Assembly: GCA_039621445.1 (NCBI GenBank)
Contig: CP154954.1
Location: forward strand, 23,882,954-23,946,953
Direction of reading: 5' to 3'
Source: Euglena gracilis
Lineage: Eukaryota
Length of the DNA stretch: 64,000 nucleotides
Under the pieces are notes generated by a model. That model saw only the letters and a list, made by a program, of their open reading frames with translations, was not told where the DNA came from and did no database searches. The first letter of the stretch is position 1. Each line of letters starts with the position of its first letter. Positions 274 through 33,204 of the stretch are shown here, piece by piece. The position numbers and the translations under genes were made by a program.

Positions 274-3200
274 CACTCCAGAGCAGATGGAGGACCGGCA
301 CACCATTTTCTGCACCTTGGCCCCCACCGGGTCGATGACCAGGAACCCGTTGCACGTCATATCCTGGCACGCACACACGCGGTTGTTCACCATCGAGTAC
401 TTGCACGTCGGGTGGGCGCAGCTGTTGCACGCCATCGCTGCGGAGGGGACGAGGTGGTGGAGCGCTGCCTGGGCTCTGTTTTTGCACGGTTTTTTGAACT
501 TTTACACTGCTTCCAGGGCGGGAAATTAACAAATCTCCCCACCCACATGACACACTCAAAGATAACAAAAAAGCAACGAAATTGGCCGGCTCCGTCTCCG
601 GACCTGGGTCTCGGTCTGGGCCTGGGGGGGGGGTTCTGGGGGGGGGGTACGTACCTGGGGTACAACCCCCCCCCAATACCTGTTGTACCTGTCCAGGTCC
701 TGGGGGGGTACACACAGGTACCCCCCCAGTACGCAGGGGGGGGTACATACCTCCCTCACACCGGCGCCGACAAGGCCTATGTCTAAATAGGTACGCACCC
801 CCCAGTACCTGTTGTACCTATACAGGTACACGCAGGTCCTGGGGGGGTACACGCAGGTCCTGGGGCGGGTCGGCATAGGTCCTGGGGGGGTACACGCAGG
901 TCCTGGGGGGTACGCATAGGTCCTGGGGGGTACGTACCCCCCCACACCGGCGCCGACAAGGCCTATGTCTAAATAGGTACGTACCCCCCCCAGTACCTGT
1001 TGTACCTATACAGGTACACGCAGGGATACACAAAGGTCCTAGAGGGTACATATAGGTCGGCAAATCCCTTGTGTTTCCAAGTCATTTTGGTGGGCAATTC
1101 CCTTGTGTTTCCAAGTCGTTTTGGGGGGCAAATCCCTTTTGTTGTCCAATTGCTCGGGGCCCCAAAATAACAAAATCCCTTGTGTTTCCAAGTCGTTTTG
1201 GGGGACAAATCCCTTTTGTTGCTCAACTGTCGGAGGGCCCCAAAATAACAAAATCCCTTGTGTTTCCAAATCGTTTTGGGGAGCAAATCCTTTTTGTTGC
1301 TCAACTATTGGAGGGCCCCAAAGTAAAAAAATCCCTTGTGTTACCAAGTCCTTTTGTTGTGTACCTGCGTGTACCTGTACAGGTACACGCAGGTCCTGGG
1401 GGTACGTACCCCCCAGTACCAGCTTGTACCTGTACAGGTACACGCAGGTCCTGGGGGGTACGTACCAGGTACGTACCCCCCAGTACCTATCGTGTACCTG
1501 CTTGTACCTGTACAGGTACACGCAGGTCCTGGGGGGGTATGTACCTGTTTAGACATAGGCCTTGTCGGCGCCGGTGTGGGGGGGTCGGACCTGGTACGTA
1601 CCCCCCCCCCTGCGCGCCTTGTACCAGGTACGTACCTCCCCCAGAACCCCCCCCACGGCCAGGCTGCTACCTTGAGGGGCGGTCTATTAACCCGTCCATC
1701 CATCCATCCATCCGTCCATCCGTCCATCCATCCATCCATCCATCCATCCATCCATCCATCCATCCATCCATCCATCCATCCATCCAACCATCCATCCACC
1801 CATCCATCCATCCATCCGTCCACCCGTCCATCCACCGGCATGCCCAACCCATCGACCCACCAGAAACAACTGTGTCAGGACAGACACGGGTGTCTACTGA
1901 ATCTTAGGCGGCCTAACTCGCACTTAGCTTTGAAAATGACTGTAAATTTGCGCCGACGCGCAAATCAAAAAAAAAGTTCTGTTTTCGAACACCGTGGCCT
2001 GAGACTCAGGACAATCTGAAAATAGTGTCTCCCTGCACCCCAGGGCCTGGGGACGAAAGCAACGACTGGGAACTTCACAGTCTACGGGCACAGCGCTCCC
2101 GAGTCCCAGTGTGCATGAACACAAAGCGGCGGGTGATGAAACGAGGGTACTCCATTACTCATTTGCGCTTTGGCACAAATTTTTTAAATTACAAAGAATA
2201 AAACCATTTGCGCTTTGGCGTAATTTTTTTACTTTTTTGTGATTCAACATGTGGGTGACCATTGCCGCACTTGCACAATGATAACAACTTTTGTGTCAAC
2301 ATGTGTTTCCATTGCGCCAAAGTGCAAGGGGTAAGCTCATGAAGAATGGAAAATTAAGAGTTATATTGCGCCAAAGCGCAAGTAGAAATACAATTTTTAA
2401 AATTGCAAAAGCAACGTGGCTTGCGCCGAAGCGCAAATATAACTGTTTAAAACATATCTCACAACGGAGGGAGAGAACGACCCTGGTAGAATATGAGCAC
2501 CAGAGGGGATAGAGCACAAAAATGCAGGACAGGGGGACGGAAACTACTCTCAGTCACGTTGCCTTAAAATTAGTCAACGTTGCGCGTTGGCGCAAGAGCC
2601 ACGCAGCTTTGCGATTTTCAAAGGTGCATTTCTATTGCGCTTTGGCGCAATAGAACTCTTAAATTTTTATCCTTCAAAAGCCTACCCATTGCGCTGTGAA
2701 GCAACAGTTATCAATTTTAATTTCTCACTTTTATCACTGCGGGTGGAGAGAGCAGTCCTGGAAGCATCTCATCACCAGAGCGAACAGAGCTAAGGTGGAG
2801 GGAAGCCTTGCCTGGGACAGGAAGCCAACCCCCTGGTCTGTGAAAACAACCACCAACTTCTTGATATCCAGACGTGTCTTGTCCTATGCGTTGTAAACCC
2901 AACTTCCAGTGCCGGAGGTTCCTCCCACTTGCCTCGCAATTAAGCATGCCTGAGGGGCCCTTCTTTTTGGCCGACTTTTGAAAGTCGGAAAATTTCTGTT
3001 TGGAAAAGAACAGGCAGCAGATGAACCCTGGGAATCACAGCCAAGGAAACAGTTTTGGACGCTGAAAAGGTGTTTTAAAGAAGCTCGTCACCCCCCTTTC
3101 TTCACCCAGGGTTTGAAGCACACAACTTTGGGGATGAGCGAATGGAATTGAGAAATCGACAGGGTCCATCAACAACGGCGGAGAAGGGAAGACATGCTGA

Positions 3201-6200
3201 CACACCTTTTTCGGTAATTTGCAACCCACCAGACAGCCGCATCACACCGGGCAGATGGAGGGCATTATTCAGCCGAAAAAGGTCTTTCTGTCAACATCCC
3301 AAAAAAAACCCCACTTTGTGCACTGAGTGCAAGGTCAGTGAGGCTCCACAGCCTACCGTCCACGATTCGTCTTATTGGAACAGCCACTCCCTCCCCAGTG
3401 CCTGAATAGTTCAGAAGCACCAACTGAGCTTCAGTCACAGCAGCCCTCAAAGGCCCTCATCATTCTCCTCTATCGCCCAACTTCTCACACAGCACGAACA
3501 CTTTCAAATGCATCTGCCACATTGCGCTTAAGCGCAAGTTAAAACAAAAGCCCCTGAGCTTATGGGAGTCCCTCTGATGTGTTACGGTGTGTCGGGGGTC
3601 CCTTTCTGCACGGCCAGTGTGCGGGCTTGGTGAGGAAATACATTGCGCCGAAGCGCGAACCATCATAAATAAAAATGAGAAATGCAAACATGCGGCTGAC
3701 ATGTAATCTGAATGAACAAGCAGTGCATTATGTAAGCATGTCCCTTGCCCTTCGGCGCAATGCATTTCCTCGCCAAGCCAACACACTGGCCATTCAGGGA
3801 GGGGCCCACAACACACCATAACACGTCAGAGGAACTCCCATAAGCTCAGGGGCTTTGTTTTTTAACTTGCGCTTAAGCGCAAATTTTTTAATTTGCGCTT
3901 AAGCGCAAGTTAAAAAAATTGCGCTTAAGCGCAATGTCCATAACCATTGCCTTCTGTGTCTCACCAGACGTTGGAACAGGTCCATGGGCTTGCCCTCAAT
4001 CCCCCCAACCCCACCCAGGGATCACAACTCTGTGACCTGCCGTTTTTTCCAACTCTTCACAACGTGTATGTCTTAGGCGGCCGTGAAGGCACTTAAGGGT
4101 TTTCGGGCCCAAAAACCGGATCGTCCGCGGTTTTGGGACCGGCCGTGGTCAAAACCCCCACTGGGAACGACATGAGCCGAACGCAGGGCGCGATGGCGCG
4201 CACCTGCGCGCGTGAGGACACGTCCGGCGTGCGCACCTGCGCTTGAAACAGACCCCAGAATCAGGCGCAGGTGCGCACGACGGATCAGTAAGATCAGGCG
4301 CAGGTGCGCGTGATCCTACCGTGAGATTGTGGCAGGTGCCTGGGTGCTGGGGCCCCGGAACGAGTGGCGGCAGGGAGGGGGCACACTTTGTTTTGAGGGC
4401 GACGCCTGCAGAACCCACCAATCGCTGCAGGACCGAGAGTCGGTCACCGGAGGACTCCGGAACACACATCAGGCACACGGGGTCCGCAAGCCCACCGCCG
4501 CCGTGTTGGACACCCCCGAGCCAGATGGGCCCACACCCAACACCGAACCGCGCGCACCTGCACCCGGGGACAGGCACACTTCGGTCGCAGGTGCGCACGA
4601 TTGGGGTGTGGACGAGGGACCCCGTGGTGTGGGTTGAACGGCCAGGCCAGAGGGGCGATGCATCCCGCAAGTGTCGTGCGCAGGTGCGCGCGTTGGGGAC
4701 CCCCCTGGTTGTTGCCCACGGCGGCCCCTGTTTGAAACCTGTGGCCGCACACACAACGGAACGTTCGGGGAGCGGGTGTGTCCCCCTTGGGACGTGCACG
4801 CGTGCGTGAGGGACGTGCGAGCACTCGGTGTGGGTGGTGCAGCCAGGTGAACACGTCCGCTATACAACGCCCGACTGCCTCAACGGTGGTCCGGTGCTCG
4901 CATTTGCGCTCTGGGGGCAGCGACGACCTGCGCCGCCAGCACGGACCCCGAGACGTGGGTCCCGAGGGTGACAAGGCAGGGCACGAAGGAACCGTGTCCT
5001 CTAGCGCAGGTGCGCTCCAGGATGCCCCGCAACCGGTGCTTCGGGACCCTTGCCACGGGCCCACCGGCGCAGCACTGGGAACGACGTGAGCCGAACGCGG
5101 GACGCGATGGAGCGCACCTGCACTCGTGAGGACACGTCCGGCGAGCGCACCTGCGCTTGAGCAGACCCCAAAATCAGTCGCAGGTGCGCGCGATGGATCA
5201 GTAAGATCAAGGGCATTCCCACCATCCGGGGTGTTCCATCCGACCCGGAGGGACACCGAGGACGCCTGCCGTCGTCATCCGGTCGCAGGTGCGCAGGCAC
5301 CAGGTGGTTTTCCCTTGGAAACTGTGAATGCTGCGGTCAGTATGAAACCTGCATGCCTTTGACAACCGAAGGGTGCGATGGACAGACACTGAGATACAGA
5401 ACATCCCGGACCAGGTGGGAGGCCCCGGCGGTGCCCGGGACCAGAGTTTGGTACCCGAAAGTCCCCGAAGGAATTTTTCACGGACGCGATGCAAAGCGCG
5501 TTTTGAGGACCTTTGCAAAACCCTATGGAATTTTTGGCTTTTCGCAACAGGCAAGAATTGACAATCTGCCAAAATTTTGCGTCGCATTTTCCTGGGTCGA
5601 AATGGGCCAGAATCCAAATTTGGCGGACCGAAACGACAAAAGTCACAATTTTTCCTTTGTGAGGGGGCAGTTTCCAATCAGTACAGGCAGTGGGGTCTCG
5701 AGAAAATTTCCCCATCCACCGGAGGGCTGCGGACCGGGGGTGGTGCCTTCGATTCCGAACTTTGCGTCGCCCCATGATTTCACATTGGCCATCGATGGGA
5801 TGAGGAAACGACACTTCCCTGCGTTTTCGTTTCCCAGGTGAAAAGGTCTGGTGGGTGATGCCCCCGGCCCTTCCTCCCCTGAAGAAGTGGCGACGGATTC
5901 CGGGTGTCCAGGCTGGGGGGCCCAACTAGGTGAAATCGGCGGCCCACAGGGAGAAGGGGGAGGGCCGTCGGGAAAAGCCAACCCCGACGCCAGTTGCGGG
6001 CGGGGTGTGAGTCCGTCCGCAGACACAAGACCCGGGGTCCTGCTTGTTCAACGCTGCCAGCAACCCTGCCCCGACGACCTCAACCACGGGTGAACCTCCG
6101 CCGCCTGGGGGCTGGGGAGTTCAGGAGAGAAGACCCGGGAGCTATCCAGGCCCCCGGACAGGGCGCTGGTTGTGGTGGCGTCGGCGGCCAGGGCACCGGG

Positions 6201-9200
6201 TGTGATCCCCACAGGGATGGAGCGCGTTGGATTGGAGCGCACCTGCGCACGAATCTGCCCCTCCCTGCTCCCCATCTTGAACCCACCCACCGAATGCATA
6301 GGAGACACAAGGTGTCGTGCGCACCTGCGCGCGTTCGGGCCCAGCTCCCTCCATACGGTGATGGGCGACGGTCCTCGCCCATCGGCCTCCCACCCTCTGC
6401 CGTCACCGGAGATTTGCACACCGCCTGACCGCTAACAGTGACGGTGCTGCAGCGGCTGCAGGGAGGGGAGCGGCCTCGAGTGGTGTCGGTCGCACCTGCG
6501 CGCGCGGTCACGCCCACAACGGGCGTTGCTGCAGTCCGGCCAGGCGGTGCTGCCCGTCCCAGCCACGCCCGACCCCTCTGGAGGGCTTGGCCGTGGCCCC
6601 ACGGCCAAGCCCTCAGAGCCTGCAAAGCCTCCTCCCCCTCAGTCCGGCGCGCGCACCTGCGCCTGACAGCCCCCCCTTGCGCCCTCGCGGGAATGCCCTC
6701 CCGCCCGAGAGCACGTCCCCTGTGGGCACACAATCGCGCGCACCTGCGCACGCAGCACTGTCCCACACACAGGGTTGGCTGTAGACTCATGTATGGGGTG
6801 GCTGGTGTGGGTAGCACGCACACGAGGGGGGCTGGTCCGGCACGCTCGCCCGCTCCCCTTTCGCACCCCCAATTGGGGCAAGGATGGAGCTGTGTGTGCA
6901 CCGGGAATGTGGCCTGGCGGTGAGGTGCCGGCGAGCAGCACGCGGGCGGCGGCACCCCCCCCCCCCCCCCCCCCCTGGCCCTCCGGTCCCACGACACACC
7001 CCTTGATCACACACCTGCGTGGCCCTTGTCGACCGGGACACTCTGTGCGAACGATTGGGCCGTCCCGCCTCACCCACGGCCAAAACACCCCTCCTTTTGG
7101 CAAAGGAAAAAATCTCACGGAAACGTTCCCCGAAGAGCACGCCGCCGCCACGCTTTCACCCTCGGACTTCGCTTCCCCTCCCTTTTGGCCTTCCCCAGTT
7201 GGTCCCATTCCCTCTTCCCGCCGGCTGCCCAGCCACGGCACCCGGAGTATCCTCGCCCACCTCCCAAACCGCACTTTTGAGGCTACCCCTTCCCCCCCCC
7301 CCCCCTCCGGCCTCGAAAGTGCGCCAAACGCTTTTCGGGGGGTGCCAAAGAATCAAGCGCAGGTGCGCGCAAGCCGGCAGGAGAAAGCGTCCGCGGTCCG
7401 CGGCCTGCCGGGCTTTCGGGCACCGTCGGGCATCGATTTTTTTTGATTTCGGCCGCCGGCGTGGGTTTCAGACACGGCCGGCAACAGTCGGTGGACACCA
7501 AAAAACCGGCCAAAAAAAGCGTCCTACACGCGGTCTGCCGGGGTGCAAACCCCGGTAAACCAAAAACAGCGGGACACAAAAAACGAGAAGCCAGCGCCGG
7601 CCAGGGTTTCAAGCACGGCCACCCCCAAAACCGCGGACGCAAAATTGCATTCGGTCTCCTCGGGCGCACCTGCGCCCAAATCGGAAAAAAACCCTTAAGT
7701 GCCTTCACGGCCGCCTAAGTATGTAGAGTCCACCCTCTGGATGCCTCAGCAGGCAACCCTTCAGGCACACATCGCAGAGCCTAAAAAAAAAGCAACAAAA
7801 AGTGCCAAATGTCACCCAGCCTGTGTGGCACCATCCGGGGAACACTGTCAAAGCTTCAAAAACGAGGGACTCGCAACGGGGGTTTCGGCCCTTTTTTGGG
7901 AAAATTCACGTGTCCCAGCGGTCAAATCCAGGGTTTTGACCCTTTTCAAAATGGTGCACAGGCTGAAAAACAGGCTGAAAAAAAAACACCAAAATTAGGC
8001 CTGTTCCCCAGGTCCCAACATCGGAAAATGATGCACACGCCACCGTGGAGGGTCTCCGCGGAACCAGGGGGTCAAAAGGATGGGTTCTACCGCCGGGTTT
8101 CAAAAAGATCGAAAATTTGCGCGAAAGCGCAAACTAAAAATCAAAACCTTAAGTGCGAGTTAGGCCGCCTAAGTGAATCTGCTGTCAGAAATTAAAAGAA
8201 ACACACATGTACACACGTGTGCAGAGACAAACACACCTGCACATCCACACACATACACATACACACCCAGACACACCTTTTCACCTCTGGTTTAAAATAA
8301 TCATGTAACCCCCCCAAGACCCGAACAATAAGACCCACCGATTTTTTCGATTTTCGACCTTTTTGACCCGAAATCTGTGGGTTTCGGGTCACCAGGGGTC
8401 AAAAACGGGGCACCAGGGGTCGAAAAACGCTCATTTTAGGCTCAAAAACAGTTTTTCTGGGGTCCCCAAGAAGACCCCCCTCCCTGATGGCGCAAAGCGC
8501 CAGAGACAGTGAATTTTTCCTCTGAAAAATTACCAAAAACCCCAATTTAAGATGCAAAAAAATGAAGGAATTCCAAAAATTTTGGGATTTTTGACTTCAA
8601 AAAAAAAACATGGAAAAAAGTCAATTTGTACCAAATTTACATGGGGCGCGAAAGGCCAAAGAACCTGAAAAAAAAATTATTCGGGCCCGGATCGGTCAAC
8701 AAGGAATCCAAAAATAAGACCCCCCAAAAATAAGACCCAGGTCTTATTTGGGGGGGGGGGGTTAACCATGCAATAAAGAAATGGGCACGGAGCAGCATGG
8801 CACTGGCACACTGGCGGCGGCATCCTCGAACGGCGGGTTGTTGTAGCAGTACGGGCACAGGGTATACGCCTTGTTCTCCCCGCCCTGCTGGTACACCACC
8901 AGCTGGAAGCCGTCGAGCGGGCACTCGATTCCCTTGTACTCCTGGGGAGGAAGGAAACCTCGAGGCACAACGTGGCCTGTTGACAGAGAGTTGACAGGAT
9001 TTCAAAAAAAATGTGTGGAAGCTGAAAGAGAGTCCGACTGCTGGGGCCGAAGCAGCCAACTGGCGTGGACAAGCTTGGTGGAGTGGACCACATTCGGTGG
9101 GCAAATCAAGAACTGCACTGCAAAAAAAAAAAACTGCAAAAAAAACCGCAAAAGAATGCTCTTCAAGTCTGTATCGATTGCTCAATACAGCAGTACAGAC

Positions 9201-12200
9201 CAATTGTTACCATCCCTGCTCCTGCAAGCTTCAACGTTTTTGCAAAAAAAAAATGCAAAACGAATTCAGGCTCTTTTGGGGTCACATTGCATTCATATTT
9301 CCTCTTGGATTTTCTCACCTTTTTAGCATGTTATTTGTGATTTTATTTCATTGAAGGCATGCTTCAACTATTGAACTGAAATCGACCCTCGTAACTGAGA
9401 AGCACTTGTAAAGATTGTTCCTAAATTTAAAAATCCCGTCCGCGTCTTTTGGGAGTTCTAAATTTCATTGAAAAACGAATCATCGTTGTTTTAAAACAGG
9501 AGGAATTGCAAACAAAAAGCAATTTCAATCATTCTTGCCATCAACATCCAACACCCTCAGATGACACCAGTGGTGCTTCTTTGATGCTTTATGAATGTCA
9601 CAATAAAATGCTTCACATCTGCTTTAATACATTGATTTTAATATGTGGCTAACTTAGAATCACAGATCACATGATATGATTTTGCGCAGGAAGAAAAACA
9701 AAAACTCAGATCCTGCTTTACGCATTTCATGTACAGATCATACAATTGCTTACCGACCCCCGGGGGGGGGGGAGGGGGGGGGTCACTCCACTTTTTTAAA
9801 AACCAGTCAGTCACTCATTTTCAAAAAACCAGCCAGTCACTACCCCCCCGGGGGGGGGGTCGGCCACTCAGAAAAACGGCCACTTTCCAGTCACTTTAGG
9901 CCATTTTAGGCCCAAAAAAATTTTCCTCACTCAAGTCACTCAAGCCACTTTTGCCCACTCCTGGCCGACCCCCCCCCCGGGGGGGGGAGGGGTCCGGGCC
10001 AAAAACCAGTCAGTCACTCTGAAAAAACCAGTCACCCACCCCCCCCCGGGGGGGGGGGGGGGTCAGTGCTTAAGCAATTGCCTGGTACAGATTTCCTCTC
10101 TTCTTCCTGGAAAACAATGAAAGCCTTCAAGCTGTTGCTTTTGTGAGATGCAAATAATCCTGCGACAAATTTTCAAAGTGAAAAAAAGCACAAAAAATGA
10201 AAGCATGCAATGCGATTTTGTGTCAATGCAGCCAGCTAGACTAAAAGACTGGTCCACCTCAGCAGAAATGACAAGAAGGTTGAGAAGCAAAACGATGTGA
10301 TCCTTGCTGTTTTTGCCCAAATGGAGCCAACCTTTCAGGAATGGTTGCTAAGCTCGATATTACCAACGTTGAATGGCAAACTGCTCGTTGCGTTCAGGAA
10401 GTATTGGGATATGTCGTGGTCCATCTCACCCGGATTCATTGGGTTCAAAACGTTATGCTGCAAAAAACTGCAGATATGCAGCAGACATTCATTTAGTGTG
10501 GTTCACAAAAGGCGTGAGAACCAGAATTTTTTTGGTGTCCACAGATGAACCACAAATTATTTTTGGTGTCAAGTGAACCACAATTTTCCTTTTGGTGTCC
10601 ACAAATGTACCACAAAAAGTTTATGTTCACAATTTTTGTTGTCCACAAAACTTGATTGTGAATTAATAAAAAACTCAGCACTTTTACAATACAAATGGAT
10701 TGATCTTTATACACTTTAGACACCAAAACGGCCACTCTGGGAAGGCGGACACTTTGGGGGGGGGTCAAATTTTGATCTGCGGCGCCTTTGGCGCCGAGAT
10801 AAAATAGTCTCCTTGAGGGGGTAAACCAAAATACGCGGAAAAATTTGGGCTGCTTTGGGGGGGGACTTTGAAGGGGGGGGGGCAGTTTAACCAATCTCGG
10901 AAATTTTTCAAAAGGGTCGAAAATTCTGTTGATTTTGTTTTTGATGGTAAAGATATTTTGATTTTCTTTTTTGGAGAAGGGGAGCCTCCAGATGAGCTTG
11001 AAGGGGGACCTCCAAATGGGACTTTTTGCTTTGCTTAAAAAAAAAGGGCAAAAAAACAAAGGGAAAAACAAAGGGAAAACAATTAAACCAGAATTTTCCT
11101 TGATAACAAGGATGAACTTGAAATGGCTCAAAATGATTAACAAAAACTATCAGTTTTCGGTCGAAATCATTCACCAATCTTCATCAATTTTCATAAATTT
11201 TCTTAAAAATTCATGTGAAAATTCTTAGAAGACAGAAAGGCGCAATTTCCCCAAAACGGCAAAAAAAATGCCAAAAAAGGAAGGAAAGGCCCCAAAATAA
11301 TATGTTATGGCCCAAAATAATGTGGTCAAAATATGCAGGAATGGGCAAATATGCTGTGGAAAAGTCCTGCAAAAACCTCAAAATATGCACTGAATGTGTG
11401 CAAAATATGCAAAATATGCACTTTTTTGGCAAAAAAAAAGGTGAAATATGAGCTAAATATGTAAAAACATATGCAACATATGCGCTCCGCTTTTTTCCCC
11501 TCGGATTGTTTCATAGCTGTTGAGAAAAAGGGATAATGATGCAAATGCCAGCAGGTGGTGGGAAATTTTTTGGTGTCCACTTGTGAACTACAAAAAATTG
11601 GTACATATATGAGCCACAAGAAATTCTGGTATCCACAAACGAATTACAAAAATATTTTGGTGTCCACAGGTGAAACACAAAAAATATTCTTGGTGTCCAC
11701 AATGAACCATTAAATGACATCCTTGGTGTACCACACAAATGAATGTCTGACATGAAGTTTTTGAGGAGAAATGTTGCAAAAAAAAACAACTGCAAAAGGC
11801 TTCAAAATGTCAAAACTAAAAAGAAACTGCAAAAAAAAAACCGCACAGTGCATATTTTCCCCCTCCCTGTTGGGATACTCCACTCAATTGTGCAGGTATT
11901 CCTCAACCATCCCTTTCCATCAACCAAGGGGCAGCAGAAACCGCAGACAGGAGAAATGAATTAGCTAGATTGTCCCCTCACCACAACAATGTCCCTCCAA
12001 TATCGAGACATGTGTTGCATAGCAATCATCCAGCTCATCCAAATTCTGCAATCTGAACTTGCGAAAAAAAGGCTGCTTGTGATAGAAGCAAACTTCGAGT
12101 GTTCCAAAGTGTTCCAAAAGTATTCCAAAGTGCAGACCTTGATGGTCCCCCCCTGAGGGAGAGAATACGTCTGATCGCAATTCCCGCAATGGAGGCGTTG

Positions 12201-15200
12201 AGGCCTGAAGAAGGATGCGGGGCTCAATGAGCACCAGGCGGGCAAGATCTGTGAAAATGTGGGCACGTTGACTTCTGCATGACAACAAACTTGTTGGAAA
12301 CCAATCAATGAAGCAATCTCTGATTTTCCATTTTAAAGCCTTTCTCATTTCAGGGGGAAGCAAAAATTACAGCCTGTAGTGACCGTCTGGCTTGGTGAGA
12401 GCTGCGCAACTATCTCACACCGCTGCGGGATGAACTTCATGAACCGCATGCAGATGCCGCAACGAGTGAGTACCTTCCCTGATGAACCAGTCGCCAGGCA
12501 GACACTGAAGAGGCTAGGTCCCAGTGGGAAAGCAAGAGACACAGATGCCCACTTTCCACGTGCCTTTCAAGTCTGTGCAAGAAAGGTCGCCATTTGGATT
12601 CACTGAATGCTGACGCAAAACACAGCTCGCCCGAATTCACCCAAAGTGGTGGAAGGCGAGACCGGTGGACGAGACTTGGGTGAAGGAGGCCTCCATCAAC
12701 TCGTCCATCCTCTCTGGAGGGACGGAAAAGCATTAACATGAATCACAGGTTCAGAGCACACATCCCGCCCCAAATATTAAACCCGCAGGAGGTTTCAACA
12801 AAATTTGGCCCCCTCCTTCTACGGAAGAACTGACAGGCAGAGAGCCGACGTTGTCAAACAGGGAAAATCCTTTAAAAGGTCCTTTAGAAATATTTACCAG
12901 TTTTTTTGGGGCAGGTAAATTGGTATTTTTCGGCCAGCCCAAGTGATGTACAGCTGGGATTTCGCAGAAATCGGAGAAATGTGGGCAAACTGAGGGCGTG
13001 GGACAAAATATATTTTGCCCCAGAAATTTGATTTTCTCACCCAAATACAACCCTGAAATTTGATCCCCCCCCCAAATCACAAACCCCCACCCAGGTATAA
13101 AAACGGGGGGGTTGACATTTGGGGGGGTTACATACATCAGAGCACATGCAACGATGAGAATCCCAAACGAATGCAGCCCTACACACTGGTGGGGAGGTCA
13201 GGAGGTGACAGGTAACTAAACAGAACAGTGCCAATGACATTTTGGGTGATACATTGCAGCGCACAATATGGTTGGTTCACAATTGTGCGCACAATTGTGT
13301 GTGCCATCCGCCTTTTGTTTGTAATTGTCATCACAAAAAAAAAATACGTCGCCAGGGGTGGTGGCAAAAAAAACTCGAAAAACACGACATTAAAAAATAA
13401 ACAGAAACAAAAAAATTACGAAAGTTGCATTGTCATCCTTCAGGAGCTCCCTGGGGTACACTTTACTCCTGGAGAGGACCAGAAAGGTTTCACCTCCTCC
13501 GGGAAAAACTTTCCATTTCGCACAAACGTTGTCACTGCAGAAAAGACAGAAGTTGACGAAAATTTTGGTCTCAGGGAAAAGTTGGGAGAAAAATTGCCCA
13601 TAGTCAAAATTTTTCCAACAGAAATCAAAAAATCGCATGGAAAATAAACACGAAAAACCTTGCAAAAAAAAGCGGTTGTGTTTCCTCTCCGCTGCTTTCG
13701 TCCGATGCAGGCTGGGATGTGTGATCCATATCCAGTGACTAGCTGCACCGATATCTTTTTTTTGAAAACTTTTGAAATTGATTGATTGATCAGCAGACTT
13801 ACAATTAATACTACTCAAAATGCATGATAAAATCATCTAAACAAAGTGATTGAGGGAACGTGGTATGGTAGAGTGTCGTGTGTATAAACAACTCCATGTC
13901 GATATTCTAATGACATATGACTCACATTGGGGGTTCGGAATTCATTTCGGTCTTGCAGAGTTTGATTTCGCTTGGAAAATTAAGGGACTTTTGGCAGGAA
14001 GCAAGCACCGATGCATTTCTGGAAATACTCAAACTTGGCCTTGAAGATATCCAATGCCTGCGGCACCTGATAAACAGAAAATGTGGTATGAATGATTGAG
14101 AGATGTCACACAGGACTACACCTCTTGTCTTTTCAGGTGATGAACAAATCATTCAAGGGGGGTGGAGTGAAAAGCAGGAAGCTCTTCTCCTTCCAAAACC
14201 AATAATATCCACTTCAGAGTGGTTCCATTCCAGGGAAATCGGGGTACAAAACCAACTTGATCCCAAGCTCCCCCAGGAACAGCTTCAAAAAGGGGGAAAA
14301 AGCTGGTGAACCGGCCAACCGGATGGGTGCCTGGGAGGGGGCTTTGCCGGGGGGGGGGGGGGCGAGGGACACACGATGTCGTCGATGGTGGCCACCCCCG
14401 TGGCAATGCTGGTCACCTCCCGCTCGATGTGGGCCCGCACCTTGGGCAGCACCAGCTCTGAGTCGATCTGCGGGTGGGGGGGGGCTGCGGTGCAATGACG
14501 CAGACGGGGGGCAGGCACCGCTGCCAGCCAAACGTGCTAAGTCTCCGGGTTGTTGATGGCCCTTTAATTGTGTGGGTGGCTCGTGCGCTGGGGTGCCTGT
14601 AGAAATGCCTGCAGAAGACCTTGCTCTTATGCGGTTCGTAAGGTAGCTCATGACCGCGAGGAATTTATCCCAATCTCCGTTTCTTTCTTCTTTCCCTTCT
14701 GTCTTCCTTTTTCCTTCTTTTTTTTTCCCAGCCGATGGAAACTTCGGTCCAGAAGTTCATGGCATCCAACCAGTCATGTCCTCGCAGAAATCGTTCAGCA
14801 AAGCCCAAGAACGGTGCGGACAAATCCGTGCCGGAAGCAGCGGCGCACCCGGTGGTAGCCGTGGACCAGGATGATGCCCAGCTTGGTCGGCACCACCCGC
14901 CGCCCGGCTGTGCCGTGCCAGGGGAGGGGTGGGGGAGGCAACGTGACTCGGAACGGGCACGGGCACGGGAAACCAGCACCAGGGGGGGGAGGGGGGGCAT
15001 CGTCCCGCAGCTGCCTCCCTGGCCGTCGACAGCCTTGGCACTGGACAGAAACCATGCTGCCACGGCAGCAGCATAATGACGATGGAATTTGTAGCCGACC
15101 CCCGGGGGGGTCACTTCTACAATTCCAAAAACCAGTCACTCACTTTTTTCCCGGAAAACCAGTCAGCCACCCCCCCGGGAGGGGTCGGCCATTCTGCAAT

Positions 15201-27200: not shown

Positions 27201-29673
27201 GTTGGGACCCACTGACCCACCCCTGGGGGGGGGGGGGCAGGCGGGCTCGGGACTACTTTTGGGGGGGTCAAGCTTGGGTCAAAAAATATTTTTTGGGGGG
27301 CAGTTGATGTCAAGGATCAAGGAAATTCCCCCCGCTGGGGGGACTACTCGGCCCGATCCACCTCCGGGGGGTGGGCGGGTCGGGCATACTATCCACCTTT
27401 AAAAGAAAACCTCCAGCAGGAATGGGAGAACCCGTAGGGAACCGCGGCGCTTTTGGCACACTCTGCCCCGGGAAAATTTCGCAGGAAAGGGACTGCTGGC
27501 CCAACCATTGTCCAGAGCAGACCCACCCCCAAGTGACAGAATGACGACTGGGGAGCCTGACCACCCCATTCCACACCCCCACCCACCCACCACAGTATCC
27601 CGCAAAGAAGAATTCCTTTGGTGCCGAAGGAATATTCTGACCTAAAAATCCGCACCCCGGAAACATGGGAAGGGGTGGGGAAGGGGTCGGACCCAACCCA
27701 CCCACCACCGACTGAAATCGGCCAAATATATTTTTGCAACAAATCACGGGTGGGGACAGAAGAGGAAACGATAAACCAACAGCAGCACATAGCAAAAAAA
27801 GCGTGGCATATGTTGGAACAAGTGACGCTTGTTTGGAAGTTCAGGTGGACCCATCAATTATAGAACCCATTGAATAAAAAGAACAGTAGAATGAGACTGC
27901 AGCAGCTCACACACGACAGGTGGCTGCAGGGGTCAGGAACCCACCTTGGTACTCATGGATGGTGCACGGCTTTGATATGCCCTTGCGGGAGGTGTACTTG
28001 AGCGGCAGCCACCTGCACCTTTCTCAGGTGGGGGGGGGGGTGCTGTGATTGCCGCGAACCACAAATGCGCTGGGTGAGGAGTAAACTCCAGAAATCCCAG
28101 GAAATGGGAGAGAGTCGGTTCCATTCCTCAGCAGCCACAATGCAGCCACTTTCATTGGATGACGTTGTAGGTCTCTCAAACAGGCTGAATTTGACCAACC
28201 CCGGGGAGGATGGGGGTATCAGAGTGACCTGGAGTGCCTGGGCAGGCACTAACTAACCCCCCCCCCCGGGTCGGTGCCTGCCTGGCCAAAAAGTGCCAAA
28301 AATGGCCTTTTGGGCTTCCAGAGCCAAAGGCAGGGGCGGGGGGGAATTGCACATCGGGGGGTCAAAAATTGCAGTGCAAAAAAATTGCACAAAATTGCAC
28401 AAAATTGCACAAAATTGCACAAAATTGCACAAAATTGCACATACTTGGAGATTACATTGGATCCCTTGTAACGAGCATGCACGCATACACCTGCTTGGAG
28501 AATCATCTTGTTCCTTTCTCAAAAACATCCAGAAATGACAGCGCGGCACAGCAAAACAATGGGGCAAAAATGCTCCACAAATAGTTCACTCCCTGCCGGT
28601 GCAATACCTTCTCGGCACAGGTTGAGAAAGTATCAAAGAGACCTGGGCAGGGGACTCAAGATAGGGTTTGCACACTGAGTAAACCAACAATAAACAGCCT
28701 TTGAACGGAAATTTTAACTCCGCACATGAGTTTCCGAGCAAAAAAAAAAACAGGTAAGTTCTCAATTGCATCAAAAACTGACATTTTCCAAAACAAAATA
28801 TCCTGGGCCATGTGCAATTAATTGCACCAAATTGCAAAAATTGCACGGTGCAATTTTCTCCCCCCCCCCCCCGCCAAAGGCACCGGAAATGCCTTGGCCG
28901 CGTGCCCACGAACTTTTGGCAGTGTGCCCCCCGGGGGGTCGGATCTGGGTGCCTTGGAGTGCCTGCCCAGGCAGCCCCCCCCCCCCCCCCTGGGGGTGGG
29001 TTGGGTGGGGTGGGTTAATATTCAGCAGGGTCTCAAACCCAAACATTCGCGAGACGTGGGAGTCCCCAACGGGACCACATTTGGAGGGCGGGAGGCAGGG
29101 GCCTGGGGGCCGTGGGACAGGATCTCGGCGATGGACTGCGCCAGGCTGGGCTTCTCCGCCACCATCGGGGCCGGGCATCGCTGGGCCTCTCCCGGGGATG
29201 GCCGGAACGTTGTGGCCAGCGGTTTGGAGAGAGGGTGGGCATGAGGCGGGGAATGGGCGGGGGTGAGAGGGAGCAGGATGCGGCGTGTTGGTCAGCAGAG
29301 GAACCTTGGGTGAATGGCAGAAGCAGAATAAGAAGCTCGCCAAATTCAGCGAAAGTTTGGCCACTATATTTTTTTGAAAAAAAATTCAAAACACTCCCCA
29401 AAAAGTCTGCCACATAATAACCTCGCCCCCCGGGAGACCACGTATTTCAAACCTCTCCGAAACGCGCGGGTATGATGCACATTCTTCAAAAAAGAAGCAG
29501 CAGAAGAATAAATTCTTTTGCTGCTTCTGGGAGAAAGAAATCCCAGAAAATAAAATTCGGGAACATCGTTTCAAAGTGCAATAGTCGACGTATTGTGGGA
29601 CCCGAAAATCGTGCAGGGACACATGGGACATGCATTCTGATGGCAGCCATGCCAGGGACAAAATGGTTTTCAT
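274..29673 (-). CDS. TOP3B: DNA topoisomerase III beta (type IA), 27 exons; 3' end uncertain (last exon may read on to a stop at 244-246 or splice to exons left of the window)
   Basis: Exons joined in frame with consistent phases: 29659-29673 (MKTIL), 29109-29165 ([19 protein letters not shown]), 27945-27999, 27080-27140, 26137-26201, 25754-25806, 25149-25223 ([17 protein letters not shown], Toprim), 23864-23961, 23356-23416, 23159-23241 ([15 protein letters not shown]), 22643-22725 ([12 protein letters not shown]), 22189-22298, 21684-21742, 21116-21200, 20148-20262 (GYISYPRTE, catalytic Tyr), 19756-19888 (GDHPPITP), 17102-17275, 15697-15814 ([16 protein letters not shown]), 15416-15491 ([21 protein letters not shown]), 14849-14907, 14375-14467, 14009-14066, 12663-12713, 12421-12478, 12138-12204, 8812-8941 ([15 protein letters not shown]), ~274-437 ([14 protein letters not shown]; Cys-rich C-terminus). 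Colinear with human TOP3B as I recall it. Confidence 0.96.
616..1662. mobile_element. Inverted-repeat-bounded element with internal tandem arrays
   Basis: Ends GGGGGTTCTGGGGG..GTACGTACCTGG / CCAGGTACGTACC..CCCAGAACCCCC; arrays of GTACACGCAGGTCCTGGGGGG and a ~60-80 bp AATCCCTTGTGTTTCCAAGTCGTTTTGG unit (~1060-1355). No clear TSD. Confidence 0.6.
1693..1835. repeat. (CCAT)n tetranucleotide microsatellite
   Basis: Direct reading. Confidence 0.95.
3519..3938. repeat. Foldback/MITE-like inverted repeat inside element A
   Basis: Arm TTGCGCTTAAGCGCAAGTTAAAACAAAAGCCCCTGAGCTTATGGGAG.. mirrored at ~3826-3882, with extra TTGCGCTTAAGCGCAA copies to ~3938. Confidence 0.75.
4072..7719. mobile_element. TIR DNA transposon 'B' (CTTAGG family) nested in A
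   Basis: 32-bp perfect TIR CTTAGGCGGCCGTGAAGGCACTTAAGGGTTTT; 5-bp TSD TATGT (4067-4071 and 7720-7724); internal ~135-bp direct repeat (~4160-4297 and ~5073-5210). Confidence 0.93.
9744..10080. mobile_element. ~330-bp MITE family with AACCAGTCAGTCACT motifs (related copies ~15090-15395, ~20480-20807, reversed ~59593-59860)
   Basis: Ends CAATTGCTTA..TAAGCAATTG; shared internal CCGACCCCCGGGGG and AAAACCAGTCAGTCACT blocks in all copies. Confidence 0.75.
10482..11749. mobile_element. hAT-like non-autonomous element
   Basis: TIR CAGACATTCATTT; degenerate 8-bp TSD ATATGCAG/ACATGAAG; subterminal TTTTGGTGTCCAC arrays at both ends. Confidence 0.7.
18177..18588. mobile_element. MITE with TIR GTAAACCCCCCCCTAATAAGTG
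   Basis: Terminal inverted repeat and internal GTGCGCACTTATTAGGG repeats. Confidence 0.65.
28000..29108 (-). other. Nonconventional intron 2 of TOP3B
   Basis: Joins ILSHG to KYTSRKG. Ends CCC-CAGGCCCCTGC ... GCAGGTGGCTG-CCGCTC; 9 of 11 bases pair; no GT/AG option keeps the frame. Confidence 0.8.
28181..29029. mobile_element. hAT-like MITE (CAGGCTGAATTTGACCAAC family; other copies start at 16743 and 47716) with a nested insertion at ~28331-28872
   Basis: TSD CTCTCAAA/GTCTCAAA. The nested unit is flanked by GCCAAAGG and carries an (AAAATTGCAC)n array at ~28365-28440. Confidence 0.65.
29166..29658 (-). other. Nonconventional (non-AG) intron 1 of TOP3B
   Basis: Needed to join MKTIL to MVAEKPS. 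Ends (G)TCCCTGGCATGGCTG ... CAGCGATGCCCGGCCCC(G); 11 of 13 terminal bases pair. Junction can slide 1 nt. Confidence 0.85.
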
Positions 29674-29712: not shown

Positions 29713-30183
29713 GCATGCTTGTTGGTTGTTTGCTGCGCAACACTCAGCGTTAGGGAGCGTTGACAAGAGGGGAACCCGGACATTGTGGACCTTCAAACCA
29801 AGCACAACCTTGAAAAGGCGGTCGTGCCCATCCCCAATCCTGGGTGTAAATGGTGGAATGTGAGGAGGATGAATGAGTCACATAAAGTCCTTGATACAGC
29901 CAGAACTTAAAATTATTCAAAAATGAATAAAATGAAGAAGAGGAGGAAAAGGAAAATAGGAGGAGGAAAAAAAAACTGTTTCGGCTCATCTTGATAAATT
30001 ATTGAGCCCAAAACATCTTTGATTTTCTGGGGTTTTTTTATTTTTTTTTGAATTGCAGCATTTTCATAGAGCGGACTTGCAAACAAAAATCAGTTTTTGG
30101 TGTGATGATTACATCACAGTTCTAAAAGTGGAATGATAAACAAGGTCATTGAGGGTTAAAAAAAAACAGCCTCAGCGCAATCA

Positions 30184-33100
30184 CTTAGGCGGCCGGATTC
30201 GCACTTAAGCTTTTTTCCTTTGGATGCGCGCAATTGCGCAAATGTACCATTTTTTTGTAACCCCTGGGACCCTGTACCCTGACACCCAGAACACGATTTA
30301 AGAACCGTTACACCCATCTATTGGAGGGGATTAACTCCCAGTGGTCTGGTGTGCATGCTGCTTACCAGGTGACGTTAATAGGGCTGGGGGTGAGACTGGT
30401 GCTGTTGTACATCAAACGGGAGAGAGGCACACACCTCTTGTGACGACACTTGGAAACGGTGCTGACGTGCTGGCTAAACTGGCTGTGATACTGCCACCAC
30501 CGGTGAGAACACACGGGGCCTCATTAGATCACACCACCACAGACACACAGACTACGTGAGGCAGCCGTCACGCAACTGATGTGTGTTTGTGCGCGCAATT
30601 GCGCAAATAAAAACAATTGTGTTTATGGGCGCATTTGCGCAAATAAAACGTACACCGATGATGTTAAAATGACGTGTTGGTGGGCGCAAATGCGCGCACA
30701 AACACATTTGGTGGTGTGCGCATTTGCGCAAATGCGCGCACCAACACGTTTATGTTTACTTGCGCAAATGCGCCCACCAACATGTACTTTTACTTTCTAT
30801 GTTAAAAGACACCAATGAGGACCATGACCGTACGAGGTTTAAAAACGTGATTGGCGTGTTGGTGCGCGCAATTGCGCAAATAAACACAATTACGTTTGTG
30901 CGCGCATTTGCACAAATGCGCGCACAAACACTTTATACACCGCTTCAAAATGATGTGTTTGTAGGAGCCTTAGAGCACACAAACAAAGCTGTGTTTATTT
31001 GCGCAAATGCGCGCATCAACACACACGAGTTGTGCGATACCATCTCCTCCTCCGTGATAGCTGGCGAACGCAACTCCTCACGCCAACCAATGGTTTGCGC
31101 CACAATTACATGCTGATGAAATTTGTGGTGAGAGGTGGTGTGGAGTGTTCACTGGAACATGGCATGTGGCTGGCCAAAATTTGCCTGCCTTACGTGTGTA
31201 CATTTGTACTGCTGTTACCCGGCCCACACGACCTGTTCCTTTGGTGTCTTCTGTTTGGCAGTTAAACATCATGAATTGATGACATGCAAACGACCTGTGA
31301 CTGTTGGACACCTTTTCTGCAACAGGACTGCGTTACAAGAAGACAAAATTTGGCACCTGAAATGCCCGGGACGTGTCGGGGCGGAGTCCGTTTTACGGTT
31401 TTCTTTGCCATTTTTCCCTTGAAAAAACGTAAAAAAAACACCGGTTTTTGCGCATAATTTGGGGGGAGTGGGTCCCACCGCTTTGATGCACCCAATCCAG
31501 GGGTAAAGGCTCAACACTTCCTTGCATCCAAAGGAACGGGTGCTTGAGGGCTACCTCTCTCCGGCTGCTGGTTGCCATGCACTGGCACCACGTCATACCC
31601 CCCAGTCTTACACCCTGGTTGCGGGGTATAACGCGGTCGCTGTGGTGGGTGTCGTTGCACCGGGGAAGTGGATGCTGGCCTGTTGGGTGCTGAAGCATCA
31701 GCAGCTGATGGGGCTTTAACAGCGGAGCCCAGGCCGCAGGTCAGTGGCAGGGCCCTTGGGACCCAAAAATTGGGGCCGGTGGACGTGTACCGTTACTGGG
31801 TGGCTGTGCACCCACTTTCAGGACATCCTTTGTCTCAACCTTTCCTGGGACCTGTCAATGGCCCAAAAACGGCACCATAACACCATGTGCCGGAGGAGAC
31901 GGTGTGGTCATTTGCTTTCAACCCATTCAGAAGCCACTAAGGGTAGCAGTAGGAGGACCAAATGAAGTCGCTTTTTACTCCTCCATTGGTTGTTTATTTG
32001 CGCATTTGCGCGCATCTCGTTGTTCGTGGGCGCAAATGCGCAAATAAACATAGTAAATTGTGCAGTTTCTTCATACAGTTTATTTGCGCATTTGCGCCCA
32101 CAAACAACGTGATGCGCGCAAATGCGAAATAAACCACATCTCGAGCTGGTGTTTGACGGTTGTGTTTCCGTCACACCGTTCTTATTTGTGTTTATGGGCG
32201 CAAATGCGCGCACCAACAAAAATTATGTTTTATGCGCGCATTTGCGCAAATTTTGCGCAAATGCGCGCATACAACATAATTTTTGTTGGTGCGCGCATTT
32301 GCGCCCATAAGCTTGCGCCGTTGACAAACAGTGTGACAAACTCACCAACTGGATGGCCCGTCAGTCTGTACCGTCAGGGCCTCTATGTCACGCAGTTTTT
32401 CAACGGCGTCAGTTCATGGGTGCCAAAGCCCAGCACAGGAAGGACAAAATTGTGTTTATGCGCGCAATTGCGCGCATCAACATGAACATGTTGGTGCGCG
32501 CATTTGCGCGCATAAACACAATTTTGTCCTTCCTGTGTTGGGCTTCTTCTGCTGGGTTCTTTGCCACACAACTGGTTCTGCGCATCCCGGGTATAAGCCG
32601 GGTGGGAGACACCCGTTCCCCTTCATTCCCTTCATTCCCTGCGGACCCCATTTCTTCCCCCCTGCGCTTCCCTTGCCCAACACCCCACACTTACCCTCCT
32701 TCCCCAGTGTCCTTGTCGCCGGCTTGGTCACACCACACCCACACCCCCCCGGCACCTCCTCCCCGCGCTTTAACAAACAGCCCCAGAACACCACACCAAG
32801 GCGCCGCAAGCAAAGCAGTCCGGCAAACACCCAGGACACACACCGCTGGCAGCTCGGACACATCCAGGGACACAGCCGAAAGAAGCAACAAGGGCAGGAA
32901 AGGTCCCGTTCCTATGGTGCTTTTTTGCGTTCTTTTCCCTTTCGGCCGGCAAGGTCCCGGGGGTTTCGACGTACAAAGTCCATTCTGCGGACACCCCAAA
33001 AACACCATTTTTCGCCAAAGTCCCGGGGGTCTCACCGCCAAAAACAGAATTTTGCTCGTTTTTTGCACTCTCTTGTCAACGTGTTTTCAAACCCCCCTGA

Positions 33101-33204
33101 CCTTCACAGCCGAAACAAAGCAGAATAAAAAAAAATCTCTCGTAAATTTGCGCAAATGCGCAAATAAAAAGAAAAAAGCTTAAGTTCGAATCCGGCCGCC
33201 TAAG
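30184..33204. mobile_element. TIR DNA transposon 'C' (CTTAGG family) between GLO1 and TOP3B
   Basis: 34-bp TIR CTTAGGCGGCCGGATTCG(C/A)ACTTAAGCTTTTTTC with one mismatch; 5-bp TSD AATCA (30179-30183 and 33205-33209). Confidence 0.93.

What the first reader, a model, noticed from the sequence alone, without database searches (positions are those of the whole stretch)
1903..33204. DNA transposon family with 5-bp TSDs and bipartite, element-barcoded TIRs (CTTAGGCGGCC-N6-GCACTTAAG)
Seen: three multi-kb elements (1903-8173, 4072-7719, 30184-33204) in which I saw no shared interior sequence have the same terminal 11-mer and a near-invariant 9-mer. These are separated by a 6-nt spacer that differs between elements (TAACTC, GTGAAG, GGATTC) but matches at both ends of each element. 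Each has an exact AT-rich 5-bp TSD (TGAAT, TATGT, AATCA). Known: 5-bp TSDs with conserved-spacer-conserved ends are typical of Transib/RAG-like elements, but those begin CAC; some hAT subgroups also make 5-bp TSDs. Inference: I cannot match CTTAG termini to a named superfamily, so this may be an undescribed euglenid lineage. The spacer could pair cognate ends, which would matter for nested copies.
Basis: partly seen in the sequence, partly recalled or inferred. Interest (0 to 1): 0.85.

Follow-up and report, generated by a model that had tools for sequence, protein, structure and literature searches.

The report
Euglenid transposons with shared bipartite ends
Three non-coding jumping-gene copies in a Euglena-type genome share a two-box end sequence and a 5-base target duplication, so they are a real but still unclassified transposon group; the idea that the variable bases between the boxes act as a barcode is untested.

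Summary
Six ends fit CTTAGGCGGCC-N6-GCACTTAAG (0.01 expected by chance). They form three elements, E1 1903-8173, E2 4072-7719 (nested in E1) and E3 30184-33204. Each has an exact 5-bp target duplication and a 6-nt spacer identical at both ends.

Public reads add independent proof of mobility:
- E1 and E2 are highly repeated.
- Other E1 copies lack E2 and keep a single TATGT.
- Sequence beyond E1's right end differs from copy to copy.

All three elements are non-coding. They sit in and just upstream of a topoisomerase III gene of a euglenid.

A new finding is that 44 GCGC-N4-GCGC palindromes occur only inside the elements, and their N4 cores are largely element-specific.

My best reading is three non-autonomous cut-and-paste transposon families served in trans by an unseen transposase. 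The termini do not fit Transib, hAT or TDD/Ginger2, nor the Euglena nonconventional-intron code. The superfamily is therefore unassigned, because no genome, Repbase or Dfam was available.

The spacer "barcode" rests on three elements only. Left-right identity is tighter than in the neighbouring subterminal DNA (P about 0.02), but no function is shown. Interest is moderate.

The parts
1898..1902 (.). E1 target-site duplication, left copy (TGAAT)
   Evidence: read
1903..1928 (+). E1 left TIR (11-mer, spacer TAACTC, 9-mer with 2 mismatches)
1903..8173 (.). E1, a non-coding element of 2623 bp of its own sequence (1903-4071 and 7720-8173), interrupted by E2. It belongs to a very highly repeated family.
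   Evidence: (body bins at 5e5-1e6 summed word depth against 170-600 in the bins 12007-14007)
4067..4071 (.). E2 target-site duplication, left copy (TATGT)
   Evidence: the empty-site joints keep a single copy
4072..4097 (+). E2 left TIR (exact motif, spacer GTGAAG)
4072..7719 (.). E2, a 3648-bp GC-rich non-coding element nested in E1, from a repeated family
7694..7719 (-). E2 right TIR (exact motif, spacer GTGAAG)
7720..7724 (.). E2 target-site duplication, right copy (TATGT)
8148..8173 (-). E1 right TIR (exact motif, spacer TAACTC)
   Evidence: loose ends begin right behind 8173 in 84 (X1) and 79 (X2) contigs
8174..8178 (.). E1 target-site duplication, right copy (TGAAT)
30179..30183 (.). 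E3 target-site duplication, left copy (AATCA)
30184..30209 (+). E3 left TIR (exact motif, spacer GGATTC)
30184..33204 (.). E3, a 3021-bp non-coding element with two clusters of palindromes (about 30568-31037 and 31991-32545) in inverted arrangement
   Evidence: (I4-I9, I22, D7)
33179..33204 (-). E3 right TIR (1 mismatch in the 9-mer, spacer GGATTC)
33205..33209 (.). E3 target-site duplication, right copy (AATCA)
1950..3932 (.). 10 GCGC-N4-GCGC palindromes of E1, usually TTGCGC-N4-GCGCAA; an 11th lies at 8119-8130. Across all 11 the N4 is mixed: TTAA x4, CGAA x2, and CGAC, CAAA, GTTG, TTTG, GAAA once each.
4188..7675 (.). 14 GCGC-N4-GCGC palindromes of E2; N4 is ACCT or AGGT in 13 of 14
30228..33161 (.). 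19 GCGC-N4-GCGC palindromes of E3; N4 is AATT, AAAT or ATTT in 19 of 19
298..8944 (-). Host context: the last two TOP3 exons detected (8944-8816 and 441-298) and the intron of about 8.3 kb between them, which holds E1 and E2
   Evidence: tblastn with P0001; the GT..AG borders are read (inferred)

Best explanation
E1, E2 and E3 are copies of three different non-autonomous class II (TIR) transposon families of a euglenid genome. All three carry the end architecture recognised by one kind of transposase, which is encoded elsewhere.

Shown:
- They are insertions with exact 5-bp target duplications.
- They have perfect or near-perfect 26-33-bp inverted ends.
- They have many dispersed copies.
- E2 landed inside a pre-existing E1 copy.
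- They have no coding capacity.

Inferred:
- A DDE-type transposase working in trans makes 5-bp staggered cuts in AT-rich targets.
- It reads the terminal 11-mer (cleavage end) and the 9-mer, placed 6 bp further in, as two contact boxes.
- The GCGC-N4-GCGC palindromes scattered through each element are extra binding or synapsis sites.

The positions between the boxes (the spacer, the N4 cores and everything beyond base 26) are family-specific. My split for why the spacer is the same at both ends:
- About 55%: each family descends from a master whose two ends must fit the same protein.
- About 30%: both ends are periodically re-created from one end by foldback or inverted duplication, or by conversion. 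These palindrome-rich elements look prone to that.
- About 10-15%: the spacer is a true end-matching code.
For: - Motif: 6 matches against 0.01 expected.
- TSDs: three exact 5-bp TSDs.
- Empty site for E2: joints 4065>7719, 4067>7721 and 4068>7722 skip 3653 bases (E2 plus one TSD copy). They appear in DNA contigs of X1 and X2 and in RNA reads of X21 and X24.
- E1's right boundary: contigs diverge exactly behind 8173, 84 in X1 and 79 in X2, with consensus agreement 0.35.
- Repetition: summed word depth is about 5e5-1e6 over the E1 body and about 2e4 over the E2 interior, against 170-600 in bins 12007-14007. The tool warns this is not a copy number.
- No coding capacity: 0 of 20 longest element ORFs reach a Pfam cut-off, and one E2 ORF has no homologue.
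- Between families: the boxes differ at 0 of 20 positions in each pairwise comparison, while the spacers differ at 6, 3 and 5 of 6.
- Palindromes: 52 in the window against 0.48 expected. 44 of the 52 are inside the elements, which make up 14.5% of the window. The other 8 lie in one GC/GT microsatellite.
- E1 and E3 also share their terminal 65-80 bp at 75-80% identity.
Against: - No transposase, autonomous copy or excision footprint was seen, so 'cut-and-paste' and 'DDE' are inferences from TIR plus TSD.
- Only three elements were seen. The genome was not available, so family consensus ends and the generality of 5-bp TSDs are unknown.
- No empty-site joint for E1 or E3 at these loci appeared among the rows shown. 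One search lists 15 joints and says 1297 more are not shown, so recent activity at these loci is not shown.
- The termini match no superfamily I could test, so the enzyme class is open.
- The binding role of the palindromes is a guess. Their folds are not better than shuffles (z -0.02 to -1.75).
Confidence: 0.8

Rival explanations
1. Barcode reading: the 6-nt spacer is read, by protein or by strand pairing, so that only the two ends of one element are synapsed. That would protect nested copies such as E2 in E1 from mixed-end events.
For: - 0 of 18 spacer positions differ between left and right ends, while spacers differ at 3-6 of 6 positions between elements and the boxes at 0 of 20.
- Left-right mismatch at positions 27-90 is about 20% (27 of 136 aligned positions). 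Zero of 18 at that rate has P about 0.02.
- A nested pair exists.
- The N4 cores of the palindromes are also element-specific.
Against: - n = 3.
- In TIR transposons generally, positions that vary between families are usually still equal at both ends, because both ends fit one transposase (established knowledge; not tested here).
- The spacer hexamers are not echoed or enriched inside their own elements.
- No mixed-end or matched-end statistics could be gathered without the genome.
- The perfect stretch runs to base 32-33 in E2 and E3, so the identity is not confined to the spacer.
Confidence: 0.12
2. They are divergent members of a named superfamily with 5-bp TSDs (Transib, or a hAT subgroup, or TDD/Ginger2) whose termini have drifted.
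For: - 5-bp TSDs, and a two-box TIR with a variable spacer in principle like the Transib heptamer-spacer-nonamer (PMC1131882, passages).
- TDD-4 and TDD-5 of Dictyostelium also make 5-bp TSDs (PMC2836005, passages).
Against: - Transib: positions 1-3 are CAC in all 21 families, the spacer is about 23 (or 12) bp, and targets are GC-rich. Here the start is CTT, the spacer is 6 bp and the targets are AT-rich.
- hAT: the third terminal base is always G and TSDs are 8 bp (recalled). Here the third base is T.
- Ginger2/TDD: TGTNR termini. Here CTTAG.
Confidence: 0.12
3. They are euglenid nonconventional-intron or introner-type elements whose paired ends serve removal from RNA rather than DNA transposition.
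For: - Euglenid nonconventional introns have end pairing and TSD-like repeats, and are suspected to derive from MITE-like elements (PMC11282704 and PMC12501133, passages).
- E1 and E2 lie in a transcribed gene.
- RNA reads skip E2.
Against: - The defined code, 5'-N3-CDG ... CH'G-N5-6 then a purine (PMC12501133), is not met at any register allowed by the 5-bp repeat. Bases 4-6 are AGG, and the CGG/CCG pair sits at +7-9 and -9 to -7.
- The joined form that skips E2 also stands in DNA contigs, so it exists as DNA.
- E1 and E2 lie inside a larger GT..AG intron.
- E3 lies about 1 kb upstream of the first exon found.
Confidence: 0.03
4. Chance resemblance or assembly artefact.
For: None found.
Against: - 0 of 100 shuffles give 6 matches.
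- Independent public DNA and RNA runs carry the sequences, the end boundary and the empty site.
Confidence: 0.01

Closest known systems
Transib superfamily (and RSS-like TIRs)
   Same: 5-bp TSD. The TIR is built of a conserved terminal block, a variable spacer and a second conserved block (PMC1131882).
   Different: The terminal block here is CTTAGGCGGCC, not the CAC-heptamer. The spacer is 6 bp, not 12 or 23. The second block is GCACTTAAG, not A-rich. Targets here are AT-rich, where Transib prefers GC-rich ones. No RAG1-like transposase was seen.
TDD-4/TDD-5 (Ginger2) of Dictyostelium
   Same: Protist TIR transposons with 5-bp TSDs and AT-rich target preference in the group (PMC2836005).
   Different: Ginger termini follow TGTNR with TG..CA ends; here the ends are CT..AG. 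No integrase-like gene was seen.
hAT superfamily, including subgroups said to make shorter TSDs
   Same: Short TIRs plus many short subterminal repeats as binding sites (recalled for Ac/Ds and Hermes).
   Different: The third terminal base is T, not the invariant G, and hAT termini have no second conserved block. The TSD is 5 bp, not 8.
Foldback-like or palindrome-rich non-autonomous elements
   Same: The interiors are largely built of short palindromes and local hairpins (I1, I5-I9). No ORF.
   Different: Here the ends are short, sharply defined TIRs shared by families with unrelated interiors. Classical Foldback elements have long TIRs made of subrepeats (recalled).
Euglenid nonconventional introns / MITE-like precursors
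   Same: Same host group; inverted ends and short direct repeats at the borders.
   Different: The termini do not carry the N3-CDG ... CH'G-N5-6 code. The elements are 2.6-3.6 kb DNA insertions found in a GT-AG intron and in upstream DNA.
Merlin families of Euglena gracilis
   Same: The only curated DNA transposons of Euglena that I found in the library (PMC8101967).
   Different: Merlin makes 8-bp TSDs and carries a DDE_Tnp_IS1595 gene.
Bacterial Tn3-family ends (recalled, not tested)
   Same: 5-bp AT-rich TSDs. The inverted repeats have a conserved outer part and a conserved inner part ending in TAAG.
   Different: Bacterial, with 38-bp repeats that start with GGGG. No hit of the motif in 185,579 prokaryote genomes.

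Membership tests
Class II TIR transposon (non-autonomous) | Terminal inverted repeats at the exact ends | tested here: met
   26-33 bp perfect or near-perfect; weaker similarity extends to about 65-100 bp.
Class II TIR transposon (non-autonomous) | Target-site duplication of fixed length | tested here: met
   3 of 3 elements have exact 5-bp repeats. The empty site keeps one copy.
Class II TIR transposon (non-autonomous) | Dispersed copies with different flanks | tested here: met
   very high summed depth; 84 and 79 contigs diverge behind 8173.
Class II TIR transposon (non-autonomous) | Autonomous partner with the same ends that encodes a transposase | not testable with these tools
   No genome is held. 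There is none in the window.
Transib | 5-bp TSD | tested here: met
Transib | TIR starts with the CAC heptamer (positions 1-3 conserved in all families; PMC1131882) | tested here: not met
   All six ends start CTTAGG.
Transib | RAG1-like DDE transposase | not testable with these tools
   No coding copy is available.
hAT | Third terminal nucleotide G (PMC1131882, Figure S7 legend) and 8-bp TSD (recalled) | tested here: not met
   The third base is T; the TSD is 5 bp.
Ginger2/TDD | TGTNR termini (PMC2836005) | tested here: not met
   The termini are CTTAG.
Euglena nonconventional intron | 5'-N3-CDG ... CH'G-N5-6 followed by a purine (PMC12501133) | tested here: not met
   Reading of the ends in all registers allowed by the TSD: bases 4-6 are never CDG.
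Euglena nonconventional intron | Removed from RNA while present in DNA | tested here: inconclusive
   RNA reads skip E2, but the same joined form stands in DNA contigs. Splice joints of the host gene were not among the rows shown.
MITE | Miniature size (a few hundred bp) | tested here: not met
   2623, 3648 and 3021 bp.

The most novel reading that the evidence does not exclude
These ends define a euglenid transposon superfamily not yet named. Its transposase reads two fixed boxes, and the bases between them (and the N4 cores of the internal GCGC palindromes) are kept identical within an element either by end-to-end copying or because they act as a family-specific address. That would let many families coexist and nest without mixing ends.
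Probability: 0.15. Interest if true: 0.7.

Novelty: new member of a known kind. Interest (0 to 1): 0.4.

Why it matters
About a third of the 2.37-Gb Euglena gracilis genome is unclassified repeat (PMC11252322), and hardly any euglenid DNA transposon has been curated. A sharply defined end motif with a fixed 5-bp TSD gives a handle to pull out whole families. By summed read depth, one family here is repeated roughly a thousand-fold or more. The motif also gives a route to their transposase.

If the conserved-variable-conserved end with matched spacers holds genome-wide, it is a natural data set on how transposases tell cognate ends apart. It also bears on the open question of whether euglenid nonconventional introns descend from such elements. 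These particular ends do not carry the intron code.

Tried and rejected
- Whole-genome scan: not possible.
- Full motif in JGI metagenome contigs, IMG/VR and GTDB genomes: 0 hits each.
Each locus has a single match; 0 of 120 have a second, inverted copy at up to 3 mismatches. 2 of 120 are within 1 mismatch of the full motif, against about 1.9 expected by my arithmetic. These are chance hits.
- Rfam and tRNA scans of the window: nothing.
Replaced by the 20 longest ORFs, which gave nothing above cut-off and three sub-threshold hits with E 0.012-0.091.
- E2 ORF 5161-5838: no homologue.
- Single-strand folding of the six ends: only the trivial palindrome hairpins, none better than shuffles.
- Spacer hexamers repeated inside their own element: no.
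- The near-11-mer at 43285-43295: no 9-mer and no partner, so rejected.
- Earlier notes of this scan: nothing on this genome or motif.
- Literature: 9 searches found no description of this family. Supplementary files, which might list Euglena repeat libraries, were not seen.
- (AAAAACCTTA)n arrays at 48.2 and 49.3 kb: checked as possible relatives and found unrelated.


Full report
**1. The observation**

The motif CTTAGGCGGCC-N6-GCACTTAAG, allowing 3 mismatches, occurs six times in the window. The chance expectation is 0.01, and 0 of 100 shuffles reach six. The six matches form three inverted pairs:
- E1, 1903-8173, spacer TAACTC
- E2, 4072-7719, spacer GTGAAG, nested in E1
- E3, 30184-33204, spacer GGATTC

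The 11-mer is exact at 6 of 6 ends. The 9-mer is exact at 4 of 6. Relaxing to 6 mismatches adds only one noise hit.

Direct reading of the flanks gives exact 5-bp duplications: TGAAT, TATGT and AATCA. Each has 4 of 5 A/T in a window of about 52% G+C. With only three sites this is a weak hint of an AT-rich target.

**2. Independent proof that these are mobile insertions**

No genome is held for the window. I therefore laid two public DNA runs (Logan contigs) and two RNA runs of the same coded organism on window 1-20000. Three results matter.

(a) Summed contig word depth is:
- 5e5-1e6 over the E1 body (bins 2002-4002, and the right part after 7720)
- about 2e4 over the E2 interior
- 170-600 in the bins at 12007-14007

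The tool warns that this is not a copy number, but it shows that both families are repeated, E1 very highly.

(b) Joints 4065>7719, 4067>7721 and 4068>7722 skip 3653 bases. That is E2's 3648 bases plus one TSD copy. They appear in contigs of both DNA runs and in reads of both RNA runs. These are other E1 copies that never received E2 and carry a single TATGT, which is a classical empty site.

(c) Right behind 8173, 84 (X1) and 79 (X2) contigs continue into sequence unlike the window, with consensus agreement of only 0.35. So E1 ends exactly there and sits in many different places.

The tables are truncated: 1297 joints and 7350 loose ends are not shown. Nothing can therefore be said about empty alleles of E1 at this locus or about variation inside the TIRs.

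**3. Anatomy**

By blastn, only E1 and E3 share anything beyond the 26-mer, namely their terminal 65-80 bp at 75-80% identity. E2 shares nothing detectable, and none of the three has a relative in the rest of the window.

Left and right ends of each element are perfect or nearly so for 26-33 bp, then decay. At positions 27-90, 27 of 136 aligned positions mismatch (20%), and there are 40 gap columns.

After the 9-mer comes a T-rich stretch and then a palindrome of the type TTGCGC-N4-GCGCAA.

- There are 52 in the window against 0.48 expected.
- 44 of the 52 lie inside the three elements, which make up 14.5% of the window.
- The other 8 all lie inside one GC/GT microsatellite at 35649-35746.

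Their cores are element-specific:
- E2: ACCT or AGGT in 13 of 14
- E3: AATT, AAAT or ATTT in 19 of 19
- E1: mixed (TTAA x4, CGAA x2, and five others once each)

Many of them build larger local hairpins (I1, I5-I9). In E3 they form two clusters in inverted arrangement (I4, I22).

No coding capacity was found:
- There are no long clean ORFs.
- 0 of the 20 longest ORFs reach a Pfam cut-off.
- The most protein-like E2 ORF has no homologue.

**4. Context and host**

A type IA topoisomerase (TOP3) gene runs on the minus strand from 29165 to 298 in about 26 small exons. This comes from tblastn with P0001, aligning residues 6-746 of 843. P0001's 90% cluster contains a Euglena mutabilis transcript, which supports a euglenid host.

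E1 and E2 lie in the intron of about 8.3 kb between the exons at 8944-8816 and 441-298. I read that intron's borders as GT..AG (inferred). E3 begins 1019 bp upstream of the first exon found.

**5. What it is**

The features shown are:
- TIRs at the exact ends
- a fixed-length TSD
- an empty site
- dispersed copies
- nesting
- no ORF

Together these are what non-autonomous class II transposons look like. I take the mechanism to be cut-and-paste by a DDE-type transposase supplied in trans, with 5-bp staggered target cuts. The enzyme itself is inferred, not seen.

Across the three families the 20 box positions show 0 differences, while the six spacer positions differ at 6, 3 and 5 of 6. This argues that the 11-mer and the 9-mer are the functional contacts shared by all families. 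The palindromes are good candidates for accessory binding or synapsis sites, in the manner of subterminal repeats of other superfamilies (recalled). That role is a guess, and their single-strand folds are no better than shuffles.

**6. The 'barcode'**

Left and right spacers are identical at 18 of 18 positions. If they diverged like the neighbouring positions 27-90, zero differences would have P about 0.02. So something keeps the terminal ~30 bp matched. There are three candidate explanations:
- Both ends must fit the same, family-specific transposase. This is the usual explanation for family-specific TIRs.
- Both ends are repeatedly re-made from one end by foldback or inverted duplication, or by conversion. 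That is plausible in such palindrome-rich DNA, and it would also explain the element-specific N4 cores.
- The spacer is a true end-matching code.

Two observations bear on this. The perfect stretch extends to base 32-33 in E2 and E3, so it is not confined to the spacer. And the hexamers are not echoed inside the elements. With three elements, the third reading cannot be separated from the first two.

**7. Comparison with known groups**

- Transib shares the 5-bp TSD and the block-spacer-block logic. But its positions 1-3 are CAC in all families, its spacer is about 23 or 12 bp, and its targets are GC-rich (PMC1131882, passages read).
- hAT termini always have G at the third base and lack a second block (same paper, legend of Figure S7). 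Here the third base is T.
- TDD-4 and TDD-5 (Ginger2) make 5-bp TSDs but have TGTNR termini (PMC2836005, passages).
- IS481EU has TNT..AYA termini (PMC10045372, passages).
- The Euglena nonconventional-intron code N3-CDG ... CH'G-N5-6|R (PMC12501133, passages) is not met in any register. Also, the form that skips E2 exists as DNA.

The elements are therefore not members of any of these groups by the features I could test. The superfamily stays unassigned until a coding copy is found.

**8. Is it in print?**

- A full-text search for the 11-mer found 7 papers, all with cloning primers.
- Eight further searches found no description of such a family.
- Passages of the E. gracilis genome papers report 58.84% repeats with 32.7% unclassified and no curated families (PMC11252322; PMC6366073).
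- The only curated Euglena DNA transposons I met are two Merlin families with 8-bp TSDs (PMC8101967).
- Repbase, Dfam and paper supplements could not be consulted, so 'undescribed' is likely but not shown.

**9. Verdict**

The interpretation as a transposon group is supported. The claims of a new lineage and of a functional spacer barcode remain open. Interest is moderate: this is a new, very abundant and cleanly delimited TIR family group in a genome whose repeats are largely uncharted, with a suggestive but thinly sampled end-matching pattern.

Noticed in passing
window 298-29165 (-): A complete-looking topoisomerase III (type IA) gene in about 26 small exons. Per-exon identity to a Euglena mutabilis-type TOP3 is 43-91%. 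Most donor sites read look like GT, but several borders are unclear and may be nonconventional.
   Followed up: partly
window 2002-3335 (E1 body), run X24: RNA reads of the E1 family are strongly one-sided: first mate on + at 11.3 and 10.8, against 0.9 and 0.6 on -. TOP3 exon bins show the same polarity. E1 copies therefore seem to be transcribed mostly in one orientation, either from their own promoter or through an orientation bias inside genes. X21 shows no bias.
   Followed up: no
window 8417-8461: A 45-bp segment at which hundreds of reads and contigs of all four runs break on both sides into well-conserved other sequence (agreement up to 0.91). This is a fragment of another very abundant repeat.
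   Followed up: no
window 668-1334, 9339-10672, 18010-18676: Other bins with summed depth of 6e5 to 3e6 in both DNA runs. These are further high-copy repeat families in the introns of the same gene; 1062-1330 is a 77-78-bp tandem repeat.
   Followed up: no
window-wide, e.g. 9964-10054, 20694-20784, 37976-38015, 49425-49475: Recurrent C-run/G-run palindromes (CCCCCCCCGGGGGGGG type) with conserved flanks; 10-19 copies per family in the repeat listing.
   Followed up: no
window 48226-48352 and 49262-49373; 58656-58736 and 59478-59583; 28371-28450: Arrays of 10-bp units ((AAAAACCTTA)n, (ATTCGTACTT)n, (AAAATTGCAC)n). Two of them occur as pairs 0.8-1 kb apart in direct orientation. They may be the ends of another kind of element and are unrelated to the CTTAG family.
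   Followed up: partly
window 1683-1838 and 35505-36300: A (CCAT/CCGT)n microsatellite directly left of E1, and a GT/GC-rich microsatellite of about 0.8 kb. The latter holds the only GCGC-N4-GCGC matches outside the elements.
   Followed up: no
window 39397-40023 (-): An ORF containing a stretch that I recall as typical of glyoxalase I (LELTHNWGT). Not tested with any tool.
   Followed up: no
whole window: GCGC-containing 12-mers are expected only 0.48 times in shuffles, which points to CpG-poor background DNA. The elements are islands of GCGC.
   Followed up: no
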